Shown: piece after piece, positions 39,536 through 57,065 of the stretch
Layout of the letters: every line of letters starts with the position of its first letter
How positions within the stretch are numbered: the stretch's first letter is position 1
Assembly: GCF_036507355.1 (NCBI RefSeq)
Contig: NZ_AP027877.1
DNA: 64,000 bases
Source of the DNA: Escherichia coli
GTDB taxonomy: Bacteria; Pseudomonadota; Gammaproteobacteria; Enterobacterales; Enterobacteriaceae
Strand: one strand, 5' to 3'
Program-made: the position numbers and the translations under genes
The notes under the pieces: generated by a model
Told to the model about the DNA's origin: nothing
Seen by the model: the letters and a program-made list of their open reading frames with translations, nothing else
The model's database searches: none

Positions 39536-40948
39536 ATGTCACTCAGTCGGCGTCAGTTCATTCAGGCATCGGGGATTGCACTTTGTGCAGGCGCTGTTCC
39601 CCTGAAGGCCAGCGCAGCCGGGCAACAGCAACCGCTACCCGTTCCGCCGCTGCTTGAATCTCGCCGTGGGCAACCGCTGTTTATGACTGTACAACGTGCG
39701 CACTGGTCATTTACGCCAGGGACACGCGCGTCGGTCTGGGGAATCAATGGTCGTTACCTGGGGCCGACTATCCGCGTCTGGAAGGGCGACGATGTTAAGC
39801 TTATTTACAGCAACCGCCTGACAGAAAATGTCTCAATGACGGTGGCCGGGCTACAGGTACCAGGTCCGCTGATGGGCGGTCCGGCACGGATGATGTCGCC
39901 AAACGCTGACTGGGCACCCGTACTGCCTATTCGCCAGAACGCAGCTACTCTGTGGTATCACGCCAATACTCCCAACCGCACGGCTCAGCAGGTCTATAAC
40001 GGCCTTGCCGGAATGTGGCTGGTGGAAGATGAAGTCAGCAAGTCGCTGCCTATCCCCAACCATTATGGTGTGGATGATTTTCCGGTCATTATCCAGGATA
40101 AACGGCTGGATAACTTTGGTACGCCAGAATACAACGAACCGGGAAGCGGCGGCTTTGTTGGTGATACGCTGCTGGTTAACGGTGTACAAAGCCCGTACGT
40201 TGAAGTCTCGCGTGGCTGGGTGCGCTTGCGACTGCTGAACGCGTCGAACTCTCGTCGCTATCAACTACAGATGAGCGATGGTCGCCCGTTACATGTGATT
40301 TCTGGCGATCAGGGATTCCTGCCTGCTCCTGTATCGGTGAAGCAACTTTCGTTGGCACCGGGCGAGCGCCGCGAGATTCTGGTGGATATGAGCAACGGTG
40401 ATGAAGTGTCGATCACCTGTGGCGAAGCGGCGAGCATTGTTGATCGTATTCGTGGCTTCTTTGAGCCATCCAGCATTCTGGTTTCTACCCTGGTGCTAAC
40501 GCTGCGCCCAACCGGCCTTCTGCCGCTGGTCACAGACAGTCTTCCGATGCGCCTGCTGCCAACTGAAATCATGGCCGGTTCGCCGATTCGCAGTCGCGAT
40601 ATCAGTCTGGGTGATGACCCGGGTATTAATGGACAACTGTGGGACGTCAACCGTATTGATGTCACCGCGCAGCAAGGAACGTGGGAACGCTGGACGGTAC
40701 GCGCGGACGAGCCGCAAGCGTTCCATATTGAAGGCGTGATGTTCCAGATCCGTAACGTGAATGGTGCGATGCCGTTCCCGGAAGACAGAGGCTGGAAAGA
40801 TACCGTTTGGGTTGACGGACAAGTGGAGCTGCTTGTTTATTTCGGTCAGCCTTCCTGGGCGCACTTCCCGTTCTACTTCAACAGTCAGACGCTGGAAATG
40901 GCGGACCGTGGCTCGATTGGGCAACTGTTAGTCAATCCGGTACCGTAA
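39536..40948 (+). CDS. ftsP: Cell division protein FtsP (SufI), multicopper-oxidase-like, Tat-exported
   Basis: 470 aa; twin-arginine signal MSLSRRQFIQASGIALCAGA. Confidence 0.93.
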   Translation: MSLSRRQFIQASGIALCAGAVPLKASAAGQQQPLPVPPLLESRRGQPLFMTVQRAHWSFTPGTRASVWGINGRYLGPTIRVWKGDDVKLIYSNRLTENVSMTVAGLQVPGPLMGGPARMMSPNADWAPVLPIRQNAATLWYHANTPNRTAQQVYNGLAGMWLVEDEVSKSLPIPNHYGVDDFPVIIQDKRLDNFGTPEYNEPGSGGFVGDTLLVNGVQSPYVEVSRGWVRLRLLNASNSRRYQLQMSDGRPLHVISGDQGFLPAPVSVKQLSLAPGERREILVDMSNGDEVSITCGEAASIVDRIRGFFEPSSILVSTLVLTLRPTGLLPLVTDSLPMRLLPTEIMAGSPIRSRDISLGDDPGINGQLWDVNRIDVTAQQGTWERWTVRADEPQAFHIEGVMFQIRNVNGAMPFPEDRGWKDTVWVDGQVELLVYFGQPSWAHFPFYFNSQTLEMADRGSIGQLLVNPVP

Positions 40949-53267: not shown

Positions 53268-54308
53268 TCATTTATCGGAAGACGCCTGCCACAGATTCAG
53301 CTCGCCATCGGCGATATGCTGATCGATCTGCGCCAGCTCCTCGGTGCTAAATGTCAGATTATTCAGCGCCTGCACGTTCTCCTCAAGTTGCTCCGCGCGG
53401 CTGGCACCAACCAATACCGACGTCACTCGCTCATCTTTCAGCAACCAGCTTAACGCCATTTGCGCCATTGATTGTCCACGCTGCTGTGCCATGTCATTCA
53501 ATAATCGCAGGCTGTTGAGGTTGGCTTCGGTGAGCATTTTCGGCGTCAGACCACGAACTTTATTCCCTTCACGATGCATCCGTGAATCTTGCGGAATGCC
53601 GTTGAGATATTTTCCGGTCAGCAATCCCTGAGCCAGAGGAGTAAAGGCAATGCAGCCCACGCCGTTATTTTGCAGGGTATCCAGCAGGCCGCTTTTATCC
53701 ACCCAGCGGTTCAGTAAATTGTACGAAGGTTGATGAATTAACAGCGGAATTTTCCACTCGCGCAGTAACTCGACCATTTTTTGCGTCCGCTCTGGCGAGT
53801 AAGAGGAGATCCCGACATACAGCGCCTTACCGCTTTGTACCGCATGAGCCAGCGCAGAGGCGGTTTCTTCCATCGGCGTATTTTCATCGACGCGATGAGA
53901 GTAAAAGATATCGACATACTCAAGCCCCATACGCTTCAGGCTTTGGTCGAGGCTGGCGAGCAGGTATTTACGTGAACCGCCAGAGCCGTAAGGGCCGGGC
54001 CACATATCGTAGCCAGCCTTGGTAGAGATAATCAGTTCATCGCGATAAGCGGCAAAATCCTCCCGCAGCAGGCGACCAAAGTTCTCTTCTGCGCTTCCTG
54101 GAGGCGGCCCGTAATTGTTGGCTAAATCAAAGTGCGTAATGCCCAAATCAAACGCTTTGCGCAGGATCGCACGCTGTGGTTCCAGCGCGTTAACGTGACC
54201 GAAATTGTGCCATAAACCGAGCGATAACGCGGGCAGGCGTAAACCGCTTTTTCCGCAATAGCGGTATTGCATCTGCCCGTAACGTTCGGGATTCGCTAAC
54301 CAGACCAT
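53268..54308 (-). CDS. yghZ: L-glyceraldehyde 3-phosphate reductase (AKR family, Kv-beta-like)
   Basis: 346-aa aldo-keto reductase. Confidence 0.9.
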   Translation of the reverse strand: MVWLANPERYGQMQYRYCGKSGLRLPALSLGLWHNFGHVNALEPQRAILRKAFDLGITHFDLANNYGPPPGSAEENFGRLLREDFAAYRDELIISTKAGYDMWPGPYGSGGSRKYLLASLDQSLKRMGLEYVDIFYSHRVDENTPMEETASALAHAVQSGKALYVGISSYSPERTQKMVELLREWKIPLLIHQPSYNLLNRWVDKSGLLDTLQNNGVGCIAFTPLAQGLLTGKYLNGIPQDSRMHREGNKVRGLTPKMLTEANLNSLRLLNDMAQQRGQSMAQMALSWLLKDERVTSVLVGASRAEQLEENVQALNNLTFSTEELAQIDQHIADGELNLWQASSDK

Positions 54309-54464
54309 GACCTCTCCTTTCCACCGTTCAATTTCGAAACAATGTTTCTAGTTTAGCGATTCGCCAGCGCGTATCCCGTAGTCTGGCTCACAGAGTGACG
54401 AAAAACTGGGCAAAAACACGTGCTTATGCTTTGCTTAAAAAAACACCAACTGAGGAGTGCAACG

Positions 54465-55352
54465 ATGCCGCGTTTAACCGCCAAAGATTTCCCACAAGAG
54501 TTGTTGGATTACTACGACTATTACGCTCACGGGAAAATCTCGAAACGTGAGTTCCTCAACCTGGCGGCGAAGTATGCGGTGGGCGGGATGACGGCATTAG
54601 CGTTGTTTGATTTGCTCAAGCCAAATTATGCGCTGGCGACTCAGGTAGAGTTTACCGACCCGGAGATTGTTGCTGAGTACATCACGTATCCTTCGCCAAA
54701 TGGTCACGGCGAGGTACGGGGTTATCTGGTGAAACCCGCAAGGATGAGCGGCAAAACGCCAGCCGTGGTGGTGGTGCATGAGAATCGTGGACTGAATCCG
54801 TATATCGAAGATGTGGCACGGCGAGTGGCGAAGGCGGGGTATATCGCCCTGGCACCTGACGGCTTAAGTTCCGTTGGAGGTTATCCGGGAAATGATGATA
54901 AAGGTCGTGAGCTGCAACAGCAGGTTGATCCAACCAAACTGATGAATGATTTTTTTGCCGCAATTGAGTTTATGCAACGCTATCCGCAAGCGACAGGCAA
55001 AGTGGGTATTACCGGATTTTGCTATGGCGGTGGCGTATCGAACGCGGCGGCTGTCGCGTATCCGGAACTGGCCTGCGCGGTGCCGTTTTATGGTCGTCAG
55101 GCACCCACTGCCGATGTGGCGAAGATTGAAGCGCCTTTACTACTCCACTTCGCGGAACTGGACACCCGAATCAACGAGGGCTGGCCTGCTTACGAGGCGG
55201 CGTTGAAAGCCAATAATAAGGTTTATGAGGCGTATATCTATCCGGGGGTTAATCACGGATTCCATAATGATTCCACGCCCCGTTATGACAAATCTGCCGC
55301 CGATCTTGCCTGGCAAAGGACACTGAAATGGTTCGATAAATATCTCTCCTGA
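54465..55352 (+). CDS. yghX: Dienelactone hydrolase family protein, intact
   Basis: ORF 54420..55352; start at ATG 54465 behind GAGGAG RBS; GFCYGG nucleophile motif; putative signal region SKREFLNLAAKYAVGGMTALALF...ALA. Confidence 0.8.
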   Translation: MPRLTAKDFPQELLDYYDYYAHGKISKREFLNLAAKYAVGGMTALALFDLLKPNYALATQVEFTDPEIVAEYITYPSPNGHGEVRGYLVKPARMSGKTPAVVVVHENRGLNPYIEDVARRVAKAGYIALAPDGLSSVGGYPGNDDKGRELQQQVDPTKLMNDFFAAIEFMQRYPQATGKVGITGFCYGGGVSNAAAVAYPELACAVPFYGRQAPTADVAKIEAPLLLHFAELDTRINEGWPAYEAALKANNKVYEAYIYPGVNHGFHNDSTPRYDKSAADLAWQRTLKWFDKYLS

Positions 55353-55470
55353 TAGGTTTATCTCTTACGGGATTACGTCTTAAACAAGCATGAAAAAATA
55401 GCGTGCGCAAAAGTCGTTCTTTGCCTAAAATATCGCTATATATGACAATATATAGTGAATGAGGTGAACG

Positions 55471-55758
55471 ATGAATAACCATTTTGGTAAAGGCTTAATG
55501 GCGGGATTAAAAGCAACGCATGCCGACAGTGCGGTTAATGTGACAAAATTCTGTGCCGATTATAAACGCGGTTTTGTATTAGGCTACTCACACCGGATGT
55601 ACGAAAAGACCGGAGATCGCCAGCTTAGCGCCTGGGAAGCGGGTATTCTGACGCGCCGCTATGGACTGGATAAAGAGATGGTAATGGATTTCTTTCGTGA
55701 GAATAATTCCTGTTCTACGTTGCGCTTTTTTATGGCCGGTTATCGCCTCGAAAATTGA
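55471..55758 (+). CDS. yghW: DUF2623 family small protein
   Basis: 95-aa ORF upstream of the hyb operon. Confidence 0.8.
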
Positions 55759-55946: not shown

Positions 55947-57065
55947 ATGACTGGAGATAACACCCTCATCCATTCTCACGGCATTAACCGTCGTGATTTC
56001 ATGAAGCTTTGTGCAGCATTAGCCGCCACCATGGGGTTAAGTAGCAAAGCCGCTGCAGAGATGGCCGAATCGGTTACTAACCCGCAGCGTCCGCCAGTTA
56101 TCTGGATTGGCGCTCAGGAGTGCACCGGTTGTACGGAATCTCTGCTTCGTGCAACGCATCCAACGGTAGAAAATCTCGTGCTGGAGACTATCTCTCTGGA
56201 ATATCACGAAGTGCTTTCCGCCGCCTTCGGTCATCAGGTCGAAGAGAACAAACATAACGCTCTCGAGAAGTACAAAGGGCAGTATGTGTTAGTGGTGGAT
56301 GGTTCCATCCCATTAAAAGATAACGGTATTTATTGCATGGTTGCCGGTGAGCCGATTGTGGATCACATCCGCAAAGCGGCGGAAGGCGCAGCAGCCATTA
56401 TCGCTATCGGTTCCTGCTCCGCGTGGGGCGGTGTTGCCGCAGCTGGAGTTAACCCAACTGGCGCAGTCAGCCTGCAAGAAGTTCTGCCAGGCAAAACCGT
56501 TATCAATATTCCGGGCTGCCCGCCGAACCCGCACAACTTCCTCGCGACCGTTGCGCACATCATCACTTACGGCAAACCGCCGAAACTGGATGACAAAAAC
56601 CGTCCGACCTTCGCCTATGGCCGTCTGATTCACGAACACTGCGAACGTCGCCCGCACTTCGATGCTGGTCGTTTTGCCAAAGAGTTCGGTGATGAAGGCC
56701 ACCGCGAAGGCTGGTGCCTGTACCACCTCGGCTGTAAAGGGCCAGAAACTTACGGCAACTGCTCAACGCTGCAATTCTGCGATGTTGGCGGTGTGTGGCC
56801 GGTGGCGATTGGTCACCCGTGCTATGGCTGTAACGAAGAAGGTATCGGCTTCCATAAAGGCATCCATCAGCTTGCCAACGTCGAAAATCAGACTCCGCGT
56901 TCACAGAAACCGGATGTTAACGCTAAAGAGGGCGGCAACGTCTCTGCAGGCGCTATTGGTTTGCTCGGCGGTGTGGTTGGGCTGGTTGCCGGTGTCAGCG
57001 TGATGGCGGTGCGTGAACTGGGTCGTCAGCAAAAGAAAGATAACGCTGACTCACGGGGAGAATAA
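55947..57065 (+). CDS. hybO: Hydrogenase-2 small subunit (Tat signal)
   Basis: 372 aa; twin-arginine signal [16 protein letters not shown]; Fe-S cysteine clusters; C-terminal TM anchor. Confidence 0.95.

What the first reader, a model, noticed from the sequence alone, without database searches (positions are those of the whole stretch)
54465..55352. Intact dienelactone-hydrolase yghX with a KR-variant twin-arginine-like signal region
The ORF is uninterrupted here, whereas I recall yghX as a frameshifted pseudogene in K-12 MG1655. The N-terminus has a long polar n-region, then SKREFLN (resembling the Tat consensus S/T-R-R-x-F-L-K but with Lys-Arg), a moderately hydrophobic stretch, and an AxA site (YALA). 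If real, this would be a periplasmic hydrolase exported through an atypical KR Tat signal.
Basis: partly seen in the sequence, partly recalled or inferred. Interest (0 to 1): 0.35.

Follow-up and report, generated by a model that had tools for sequence, protein, structure and literature searches.

The report
Intact yghX hydrolase with Tat-like leader
This is the ordinary intact form of the E. coli yghX hydrolase gene (broken in K-12), and its 58-residue leader is the Lys-Arg version of a family-wide twin-arginine-type export signal that is unusually long, deeply conserved and predicted to be folded, although export has never been tested.

Summary
Window 54465-55352 (+) is an uninterrupted 295-aa yghX ORF with a GAGGAG ribosome-binding site. 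It has a dienelactone-hydrolase domain with a Cys186/Asp233/His264 triad, and its N-terminus reads SKREFLN, then a charge-free stretch, then KPNYALA. K-12 is frameshifted by a 2-bp deletion in codon 37 and a 1-bp deletion near codon 157. That allele occurs in only about 1,200 of 5,426 complete E. coli genomes, so an intact gene is the norm. Residues 60-294 are already solved as PDB 4ZV9.

The Tat reading is partly supported by comparison. Among 50%-identity family representatives the same position reads RR in 64 and KR in 12. Arg28 and Phe30 are near-invariant, and small residues sit at -3/-1 a fixed 30 residues after the motif. Some relatives carry plain Tat signals or lipoboxes.

The E. coli leader itself fails the RR-based tests: the TatP default pattern, and TIGR01409, which neighbouring HybO passes at 29 bits. 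I found no experimental export data.

The first 36 residues form a Pfam family (YqhI-like) that survives in K-12 as the small protein YqhI. AlphaFold2 predicts the whole leader as a confident three-helix module (pLDDT 91-95, pTM 0.93). Modest interest; a new member of a known kind.

The parts
54452..54457 (+). Shine-Dalgarno GAGGAG, 7 nt upstream of the yghX ATG
   Evidence: Read directly from the sequence. The same start is annotated in strain F9792, and YqhI is translated from this ATG in K-12 (PMC6001520).
54465..55352 (+). yghX coding sequence, 295 codons plus stop; intact
   Evidence: ORF list and sequence. NF041440 scores 586 bits. 99.8% DNA identity to annotated yghX of strain F9792.
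54465..54572 (+). Residues 1-36: conserved n-region, Pfam PF23678 'YqhI-like'. It has an amphipathic helix and the motif Y17-D18-x-Y20-x-H22-G23. The same 36 residues form the in-frame part of the K-12 small protein YqhI.
   Evidence: Pfam hit at E 1.5e-21, 75.9 bits against a cut-off of 27. YqhI sequence from PMC6001520. Column statistics.
54540..54560 (+). S26-K27-R28-E29-F30-L31-N32: the Lys-Arg form of the twin-arginine consensus S/T-R-R-x-F-L-K
   Evidence: Sequence. Homologues have RR in 64 and KR in 12. R28 is invariant in A3.
54573..54574 (+). Site of the 2-bp (TA) deletion that frameshifts K-12 yghX at codon 37
   Evidence: Alignment of the window, K-12 and F9792. The exact K-12 junction is present in 1,248 of 5,426 genomes.
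54573..54617 (+). Residues 37-51, YAVGGMTALALFDLL: the moderately hydrophobic stretch (candidate h-region). Residues 37-48 are charge-free across the family.
   Evidence: Kyte-Doolittle maxima comparable with the HybO signal. A 12-column charge-free run in 40 diverse sequences.
54618..54638 (+). Residues 52-58, KPNYALA: candidate c-region with a basic residue, a Pro and an A-x-A signal-peptidase motif. The putative cleavage is A58|T59.
   Evidence: A56 in 155 of 172 and A58 in 148 of 172 sequences, always 30 residues after the RR/KR. Non-helical in the model from residue 57.
54639..55349 (+). Residues 59-295: alpha/beta-hydrolase (dienelactone hydrolase) domain
54933..54934 (+). Site of the 1-bp (C) deletion, the second K-12 frameshift, near codon 157
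   Evidence: Alignment. The exact K-12 allele is present in 1,197 genomes.
55020..55022 (+). Cys186 codon (TGC) in G-F-C-Y-G-G, the nucleophile elbow
   Evidence: Sequence. G184, F185, G188 and G189 are nearly invariant. Assignment is by alignment to DLH-family structures and established knowledge of the Cys-His-Asp triad of ClcD.
55161..55163 (+). Asp233 codon, triad acid
   Evidence: D233 is at least 90% conserved.
55254..55256 (+). His264 codon in N-H-G-F-H-N-D, triad base
   Evidence: Sequence and alignment A2. The assignment is by family knowledge, that is, by inference.

Best explanation
yghX encodes a Cys-nucleophile dienelactone-hydrolase-family esterase or lactonase made as a precursor with a 58-residue N-terminal leader. 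The leader is most likely a twin-arginine-type export signal in which the first Arg is Lys.

Proposed steps:
1. The protein folds in the cytoplasm.
2. The K27-R28-x-F30-L31 motif and the charge-free stretch 37-51 are recognised by TatBC.
3. The enzyme crosses the inner membrane.
4. Signal peptidase I cuts after A56-L-A58.
5. This releases a soluble periplasmic enzyme, residues 59-295, which is the part crystallised as 4ZV9.

The leader is atypical in two ways beyond the Lys. Its first 26-36 residues are a deeply conserved amphipathic region (Pfam YqhI-like). The whole leader is also predicted to fold into three short helices positioned on the enzyme, so in the precursor it probably contacts the folded domain.

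Shown: the intact ORF, the family membership, the K-12 frameshifts, the RR/KR homology, the leader's composition and the structure of the catalytic domain. Inferred: export itself, its Tat dependence, the cleavage site and any leader-enzyme contact. The substrate is unknown.
For: 1. Position-specific homology to RR. Among representatives with this leader, 64 have RR and 12 have KR. R28 and F30 are essentially invariant.
2. KR is stable, not decaying. All 120 nearest clusters have it, as do clusters down to about 50% identity (P0125, P0144, P0196).
3. Signal-like anatomy. There is a 12-column charge-free run at 37-48; the only longer one in the protein is the buried strand-elbow 180-193. Hydrophobicity equals that of HybO's proven Tat signal. 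K52 and P53 precede A-x-A at a fixed 30 residues from the motif. Flanking charges favour an N-in/C-out orientation.
4. Relatives of the same catalytic domain carry plain Tat-type signals or lipoboxes followed by long Pro/Thr linkers, which only makes sense for exported proteins. P0162 has lost the RR and the A-x-A together.
5. Tat-signal HMMs reach or approach threshold on RR relatives: TIGR01409 gives 16.7, 16.4, 15.8 and 15.7 bits against a cut-off of 16.7.
6. The catalytic domain folds without the leader (4ZV9 lacks residues 1-59).
7. Single Arg-to-Lys Tat motifs work in SufI and TorA and occur naturally in TtrB (PMC1182353).
Against: - No experiment on localisation or processing was found.
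- The E. coli leader gives no hit to TIGR01409 or Pfam TAT_signal, even with an in-silico K27R change, while HybO scores 29.2 bits.
- It fails TatP's default pattern.
- Its uncharged run is 12 residues. HybO has 13, and the TATFIND minimum is 13 as I recall it.
- A dienelactone hydrolase has no known cofactor that would explain use of Tat.
- AlphaFold2 gives the leader pLDDT 91-95 with pTM 0.93 in E. coli. It gives 84-96 with pTM 0.92 in an RR alpha-proteobacterial homologue. The hydrophobic stretch is broken into loop plus short helix. This is unlike what I expect for a free signal peptide, though no control prediction on a proven Tat precursor could be run.
- Spacing from motif to A-x-A is invariant, which suggests a structural constraint.
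- Neighbouring genes of homologues encode cytoplasmic aldehyde-detoxification enzymes.
Confidence: 0.55

Rival explanations
1. Cytoplasmic enzyme with an N-terminal three-helix cap. Residues 1-58 are a permanent structural or regulatory sub-domain packed on the hydrolase. The RR/KR-x-F-L plus A-x-A resemblance is vestigial, an ancestral signal co-opted as a cap, or coincidental. The protein is neither exported nor cleaved.
For: - AlphaFold2 gives pLDDT 91-95 for residues 1-60 with pTM 0.93, and the same fold in the RR homologue P0137. With about 20% of residues unplaced, such a pTM would not be expected (inference).
- Spacing is fixed with no indels between the motif and residue 58.
- H22, Y20, D18 and F30 are conserved like functional residues.
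- The leader occurs only on this hydrolase domain.
- Tat HMMs do not recognise the E. coli leader.
- Neighbouring genes are cytoplasmic: gpr in E. coli, GFA and glyoxalase-like genes elsewhere.
Against: - The catalytic domain folds and crystallises without residues 1-59.
- Close relatives replace the leader by plain Tat signals or carry lipoboxes and long disordered linkers between leader and enzyme.
- A 12-residue run with no charged residue in any of 40 diverse sequences is hard to explain for an appended surface element.
- Small residues at -3/-1 are conserved.
- No solved structure shows such a cap on a DLH fold.
Confidence: 0.25
2. Uncleaved signal anchor. The leader inserts into the inner membrane (N-in, C-out) and stays attached, tethering the hydrolase to the periplasmic face, as with Rieske proteins that keep their Tat signal.
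For: - The charge distribution favours N-in/C-out: K24, K27, R28 and K36 lie before the stretch, and D49, E62, D65 and E67 after it.
- There are weak sub-threshold hits of homologues to the Rieske Tat-signal model PF10399, 17.7 bits against a cut-off of 24.
- High conservation of the whole leader would fit a retained element.
Against: - The hydrophobic stretch is short and weak for a stable transmembrane helix: the Kyte-Doolittle 19-residue maximum is 1.41, and the stretch contains G40, G41, T43 and D49.
- A-x-A is strongly conserved.
- Lipobox variants imply cleavage in some relatives.
Confidence: 0.1
3. Sec- or SRP-dependent export. The leader is a long general secretory signal and the KR is simply the positive n-region.
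For: It has a positive charge before a hydrophobic stretch and an A-x-A site. Most KR-x-hydrophobic candidates in B. subtilis proved Sec-dependent (PMC1182353).
Against: - The hydrophobicity is low and Gly/Thr-rich, like HybO's Tat signal.
- A basic residue (K52) sits in the c-region.
- RR-x-F-L is near-invariant in the family, which Sec signals do not require.
- The 26-residue acidic/aromatic n-extension has about zero net charge.
Confidence: 0.05

Closest known systems
E. coli yghX / YghX family hydrolase (NCBIfam NF041440; PDB 4ZV9 from O157:H7 Sakai; pseudogene in K-12)
   Same: It is the same gene. It shares 99.8% DNA identity with annotated yghX of strain F9792 and has the same neighbours: yqhA, gpr, yghW and hybO. 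It scores 586 bits against NF041440. Residues 60-294 are 98% identical to 4ZV9.
   Different: Nothing of substance. The window carries the common intact allele, not the K-12 allele with its two frameshifts. 4ZV9 lacks the leader, so the leader has no experimental structure.
YqhI, the 47-aa small protein of E. coli K-12 (Pfam PF23678 'YqhI-like')
   Same: Residues 1-36 are identical to YghX residues 1-36 (PMC6001520). It uses the same start codon and ribosome-binding site.
   Different: YqhI is the orphaned front of the leader plus 11 out-of-frame residues, created by the 2-bp deletion. Here the same residues continue into the full hydrolase. YqhI is induced by low Mg2+ independently of PhoQP, is described in that study as a putative soluble protein, and its deletion phenotype was not complemented (PMC11429745).
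Natural and engineered Lys-Arg twin-arginine signals (Salmonella TtrB; SufI and TorA R-to-K mutants)
   Same: Lys replaces the first Arg in an otherwise consensus S/T-R-R-x-F-L context. The TatP default pattern rejects them unless Lys is allowed (PMC1182353).
   Different: Those signals were shown to be Tat-dependent; YghX has not been tested. YghX's leader is much longer (58 residues), has a conserved n-region, and precedes a protein with no known cofactor.
Tat signals of HybO and FtsP/SufI encoded in the same window
   Same: The layout is comparable: motif, then a moderately hydrophobic Ala/Gly/Thr-rich stretch, then A-x-A. Hydrophobicity is comparable with HybO. The FtsP signal is also about as conserved as its mature domain, 0.84 versus 0.86.
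   Different: HybO passes TIGR01409 at 29.2 bits and YghX gives no hit. From the RR to the cleavage site, HybO and FtsP span about 21 residues and YghX spans 30. YghX also has 26 residues before the motif.
Dienelactone hydrolase ClcD (PDB 1DIN) and other cytoplasmic DLH-family enzymes
   Different: About 26% identity. ClcD has no N-terminal leader and acts in cytoplasmic chlorocatechol degradation. YghX's substrate is unknown.

Membership tests
Dienelactone hydrolase family (Pfam PF01738) | Profile match above the gathering score | tested here: met
   163.9 bits against a cut-off of 21, residues 85-294
Dienelactone hydrolase family (Pfam PF01738) | Alpha/beta-hydrolase fold of DLH type | tested here: met
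Dienelactone hydrolase family (Pfam PF01738) | Cys-Asp-His catalytic triad | tested here: met
   C186 lies in GFCYGG, and D233 and H264 are present. D233 and the flanking Gly residues are at least 90% conserved. The residue roles are assigned by alignment, not by assay.
Dienelactone hydrolase family (Pfam PF01738) | Hydrolysis of dienelactone or another ester/lactone | not testable with these tools
   No activity data found. A Neptunicella protein annotated as YghX-like had no PETase activity (PMC12366299).
YghX family hydrolase (NCBIfam NF041440) | Score at or above the curated cut-off of 460 bits | tested here: met
   586.5 bits over profile positions 1-292
YqhI-like N-terminal region (Pfam PF23678) | Profile match above the gathering score of 27 bits | tested here: met
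   75.9 bits, residues 1-36
Twin-arginine (Tat) signal peptide | Two consecutive arginines in S/T-R-R-x-F-L-K | tested here: not met
   The sequence is S-K-R-E-F-L-N, with Lys at the first Arg and Asn at the last position. It fails the TatP default pattern RR.[FGAVML][LITMVF] and passes only if K is allowed, as was done for TtrB (PMC1182353).
Twin-arginine (Tat) signal peptide | Match to the Tat-signal profile TIGR01409 (cut-off 16.7 bits) or Pfam TAT_signal | tested here: not met
   No hit at E up to 10, even with an in-silico K27R change. The positive control HybO scores 29.2 bits. RR relatives score 12.7-16.7 bits.
Twin-arginine (Tat) signal peptide | Moderately hydrophobic, uncharged h-region after the motif | tested here: inconclusive
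   Hydrophobicity is comparable with HybO (1.85 versus 1.99 over 11 residues). The uncharged run is 12 residues against 13 in HybO. It is charge-free in all 40 diverse homologues.
Twin-arginine (Tat) signal peptide | c-region with small residues at -3/-1, often with a basic residue | tested here: met
   K52-P-N-Y-A56-L-A58. A56 occurs in 155 of 172 and A58 in 148 of 172 sequences.
Twin-arginine (Tat) signal peptide | Orthologues or homologues carry the canonical RR at the same position | tested here: met
   64 RR against 12 KR among representatives with the leader. R28 is invariant in A3.
Twin-arginine (Tat) signal peptide | Export depends on TatABC and is blocked by KK substitution | not testable with these tools
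   No experimental report found

The most novel reading that the evidence does not exclude
The 58-residue leader is a dual-purpose element. It is a Tat signal whose conserved n-region (YqhI-like) and hydrophobic stretch fold into a three-helix module docked on the already folded hydrolase in the cytoplasmic precursor. The module could act as an inhibitory propeptide or as a built-in folding sensor, until export and cleavage release the active periplasmic enzyme. K-12's 'small protein' YqhI would then be the orphaned front half of this module.
Probability: 0.2. Interest if true: 0.7.

Novelty: new member of a known kind. Interest (0 to 1): 0.35.

Why it matters
If export is confirmed, YghX would add a natural Lys-Arg signal to the E. 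coli Tat substrate list. It would have been missed because the reference strain K-12 carries a pseudogene and because RR-based predictors reject it. It would also be a cofactor-less hydrolase using Tat.

The finding reframes the K-12 small protein YqhI. YqhI has been studied as a Mg2+-stress-induced small protein, but it is the remnant of a signal leader rather than a dedicated gene product.

The leader is deeply conserved and predicted to be structured. If that is real, it would be a tractable case for asking how a Tat signal interacts with its own folded passenger.

For genome annotation the result is ordinary: a known gene in its common, intact form.

Tried and rejected
1. Conservation argument. 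I expected a cleavable signal to evolve faster than the mature part and found the YghX leader more conserved (0.907 versus 0.863 identity). The control with the proven Tat substrate FtsP/SufI from the same window showed signal and mature part about equally conserved (0.84 versus 0.857; 0.77 versus 0.75). The argument does not discriminate, so I dropped it.

2. Search for the leader on other catalytic domains. A profile of 30 N-termini returned only short fragments of the same hydrolase genes. This gives no evidence for a portable module.

4. Literature. yghX appears almost only as a neutral integration site in K-12 engineering. The 'dienelactone hydrolase' over-represented in O157 culture supernatants is a pO157 plasmid protein, not YghX.

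5. Promoter and terminator scan of 54250-55520. It found nothing on the + strand beyond chance.

6. Gene neighbourhoods of distant homologues. They gave no conserved operon, only an anecdotal recurrence of aldehyde-detoxification genes.

7. Upstream GTG start. The GTG at 54420 was rejected in favour of the ATG at 54465, based on the ribosome-binding site, the RefSeq annotation and the YqhI tagging data.

Full report
**What is there.** Window 54465-55352 (+) is an uninterrupted ORF of 295 codons. It lies between gpr/yghZ (53268-54308, minus strand) and yghW (55471-55758), followed by hybO (55947-). This is the K-12 yqhA-gpr-yghX-yghW-hyb neighbourhood. A GAGGAG box sits 7 nt upstream of the ATG. 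RefSeq annotates the same start in the 99.8%-identical strain F9792. The K-12 small protein YqhI, verified by chromosomal epitope tagging, starts at this ATG (PMC6001520).

The protein matches Pfam DLH over residues 85-294 (E 5e-48) and Pfam PF23678 'YqhI-like' over residues 1-36 (E 1.5e-21). It scores 586 bits on NCBIfam 'YghX family hydrolase', cut-off 460. The G-F-C186-Y-G-G elbow, D233 and H264 are present, so the Cys-Asp-His triad of the family is intact. Residues 60-294 have been solved as PDB 4ZV9, an 'uncharacterized protein' from E. coli O157:H7 Sakai. My model superposes on it at 0.7-1.0 Å. O157 has Thr59, so the crystallised chain is a three-residue tag followed by Gln60 onward.

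**The pseudogene claim.** K-12 MG1655 yghX is annotated 'frameshifted'. Aligned to the window it lacks TA at ORF nt 109-110 (codon 37) and one C at nt 469/470. Translation of the K-12 allele gives MPRL...LAAK followed by CGRRDDGISVV and a stop. That is exactly the published 47-aa YqhI.

The locus is present in 5,425 of 5,426 complete E. coli genomes. Probes spanning each K-12 junction match exactly in 1,248 and 1,197 genomes. Roughly 22-23% of sequenced genomes, including many laboratory K-12 derivatives but also clinical and animal isolates, therefore carry the broken allele. The intact gene seen here is the rule.

**The N-terminus in its family.** All 120 nearest protein clusters (Enterobacteriaceae, at least 85% identity) have K-R at positions 27-28. 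An exhaustive search of 1.84 billion cluster representatives found 604 relatives at E below 1e-30.

Among the best 150, those carrying the leader show the pattern [YF]-D-x-[YF]-x-H-G-x-[IL]-[SD]-R-R-x-F-L. RR occurs in 64, KR in 12, and RK, RQ and RT once each. R28 is invariant and Y20 and F30 nearly so in an alignment of 30 diverse N-termini. KR is therefore a clade-level variant of a family-wide RR. It has been stable down to about 50% identity (P0125, P0144, P0196), which argues against recent decay.

After the motif come two turns with basic residues, then twelve columns (37-48) without a single charged residue in 40 diverse sequences. The only longer charge-free run in the protein is the buried strand and nucleophile elbow 180-193. 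Next comes x-L-L-(K)-P-N-Y-A-x-A, with Ala at -3 in 155 of 172 sequences and Ala at -1 in 148 of 172, always 30 residues after the motif.

Hydrophobicity of the stretch equals that of the adjacent, proven Tat signal of HybO: 1.85 versus 1.99 over 11 residues, and 1.55 versus 1.46 over 15.

Other relatives of the same catalytic domain have short, canonical Tat-type signals (P0152, P0166, P0177, P0195, P0248). Others have a related n-extension followed by RR, a lipobox (ILAAC or LLAAC) and long Pro/Thr-rich linkers (P0204, P0214, P0228; P0257 has a lipobox too). One relative, P0162, has lost the RR and the A-x-A together. These comparisons are the main support for an export signal.

**What speaks against a simple Tat signal.** The E. 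coli leader gives no hit to TIGR01409 or Pfam TAT_signal at E up to 10, even after changing K27 to R in silico. HybO, as a positive control, scores 29.2 bits against a cut-off of 16.7. RR relatives hover at the threshold, 12.7 to 16.7 bits.

The TatP default pattern requires RR. TtrB, the known natural KR case, is predicted only when Lys is allowed (PMC1182353). The uncharged run is 12 residues against 13 in HybO.

AlphaFold2, with a 44-sequence alignment, predicts the leader with pLDDT 91-95 as three short helices (11-21, 27-37, 44-51) at pTM 0.93. An alpha-proteobacterial RR homologue gives the same picture, pLDDT 84-96 and pTM 0.92. A pTM this high with 20% of the chain unplaced would be surprising, so the models probably dock the leader on the enzyme. 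This is an inference: I could not see coordinates or PAE, and no control on a proven Tat precursor could be run. No solved structure contains such a module.

I found no localisation or processing data in the literature.

**A control that removed one argument.** The leader is slightly more conserved than the catalytic domain among close relatives, 0.907 versus 0.863. The Tat signal of FtsP/SufI, encoded at 39536-40948 in this same window, is also about as conserved as its mature part, 0.84 versus 0.857. Conservation at this depth therefore does not separate the hypotheses. What remains unusual is the depth of conservation of the n-region, which is recognisable from gamma- to alpha-proteobacteria and in altered form in Actinobacteria, together with the fixed spacing.

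**Verdict.** The best-supported reading, at about 0.55, is a precursor with a Lys-Arg Tat-type signal. It would be cleaved after A58 to release a periplasmic Cys-hydrolase of unknown substrate. The leader would be atypically long, conserved and probably structured.

The main rival, at about 0.25, is a cytoplasmic enzyme whose N-terminal three helices form a permanent cap derived from, or merely resembling, a Tat signal. An uncleaved anchor (about 0.1) and Sec export (about 0.05) are less likely.

The gene, its K-12 pseudogene state, its catalytic-domain structure and YqhI are all known. The KR Tat-like leader does not appear in the literature I could search, so I rate the finding a new member of a known kind, of modest interest.

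The most novel reading not excluded is that the leader doubles as a docked propeptide or folding sensor, with K-12's YqhI as its orphaned front half.

Noticed in passing
window 54465-54572; K-12 locus L001 1666-1809: The K-12 small protein YqhI (47 aa; induced by low Mg2+ independently of PhoQP; deletion phenotype not complemented) is the first 36 residues of the YghX leader plus 11 out-of-frame residues created by the 2-bp deletion. The Pfam family 'YqhI-like' is therefore the n-region of a hydrolase leader, not an independent small-protein family. Profile hits to it were all fragments of hydrolase genes.
   Followed up: yes
window 39536-40948 (+): This is ftsP/sufI, the model Tat substrate (MSLSRRQFIQASGIALCAGAVPLKASA|AG). 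Across Enterobacterales its signal peptide is about as conserved as its mature domain (0.84 versus 0.86), contrary to the usual assumption that signals drift faster.
   Followed up: partly
window 55947-57065 (+): This is hybO, the hydrogenase-2 small subunit, with a canonical Tat signal ([25 protein letters not shown]). It scores 29.2 bits on TIGR01409 and served as the positive control. Two proven Tat substrates thus lie within 16 kb of yghX, which I take to be coincidental.
   Followed up: partly
loci L003/L004 (P0137) and L007-L009 (P0126); window 53268-54308: Distant YghX homologues sit next to a glyoxalase-like gene (same strand) or a glutathione-dependent formaldehyde-activating (GFA) gene (divergent; seen on three contigs). 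E. coli yghX is divergent from gpr, an aldo-keto reductase. This loose recurrence of aldehyde-detoxification neighbours might hint at the substrate, but they are cytoplasmic enzymes and there is no conserved operon.
   Followed up: partly
proteins P0162, P0195, P0263, P0143 (alignment A2): Some family members lack the nucleophile Cys (GLGWGG, GFRWGG, GFAWGG) and/or the triad His. These may be inactive pseudo-enzymes. P0162 has also lost the RR and the A-x-A.
   Followed up: no
window 54420-54464 (+): The reading frame is open upstream to a GTG at 54420, which would add 15 residues (MLMLCLKKHQLRSAT). No ribosome-binding site or annotation supports it.
   Followed up: partly
E. coli genome collection: The two K-12 frameshifts occur in nearly the same number of genomes (1,248 and 1,197), including human, duck and calf isolates. 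This suggests a single old pseudogenisation inherited by a lineage rather than a laboratory artefact. Co-occurrence in the same genomes and the phylogroup were not checked.
   Followed up: partly
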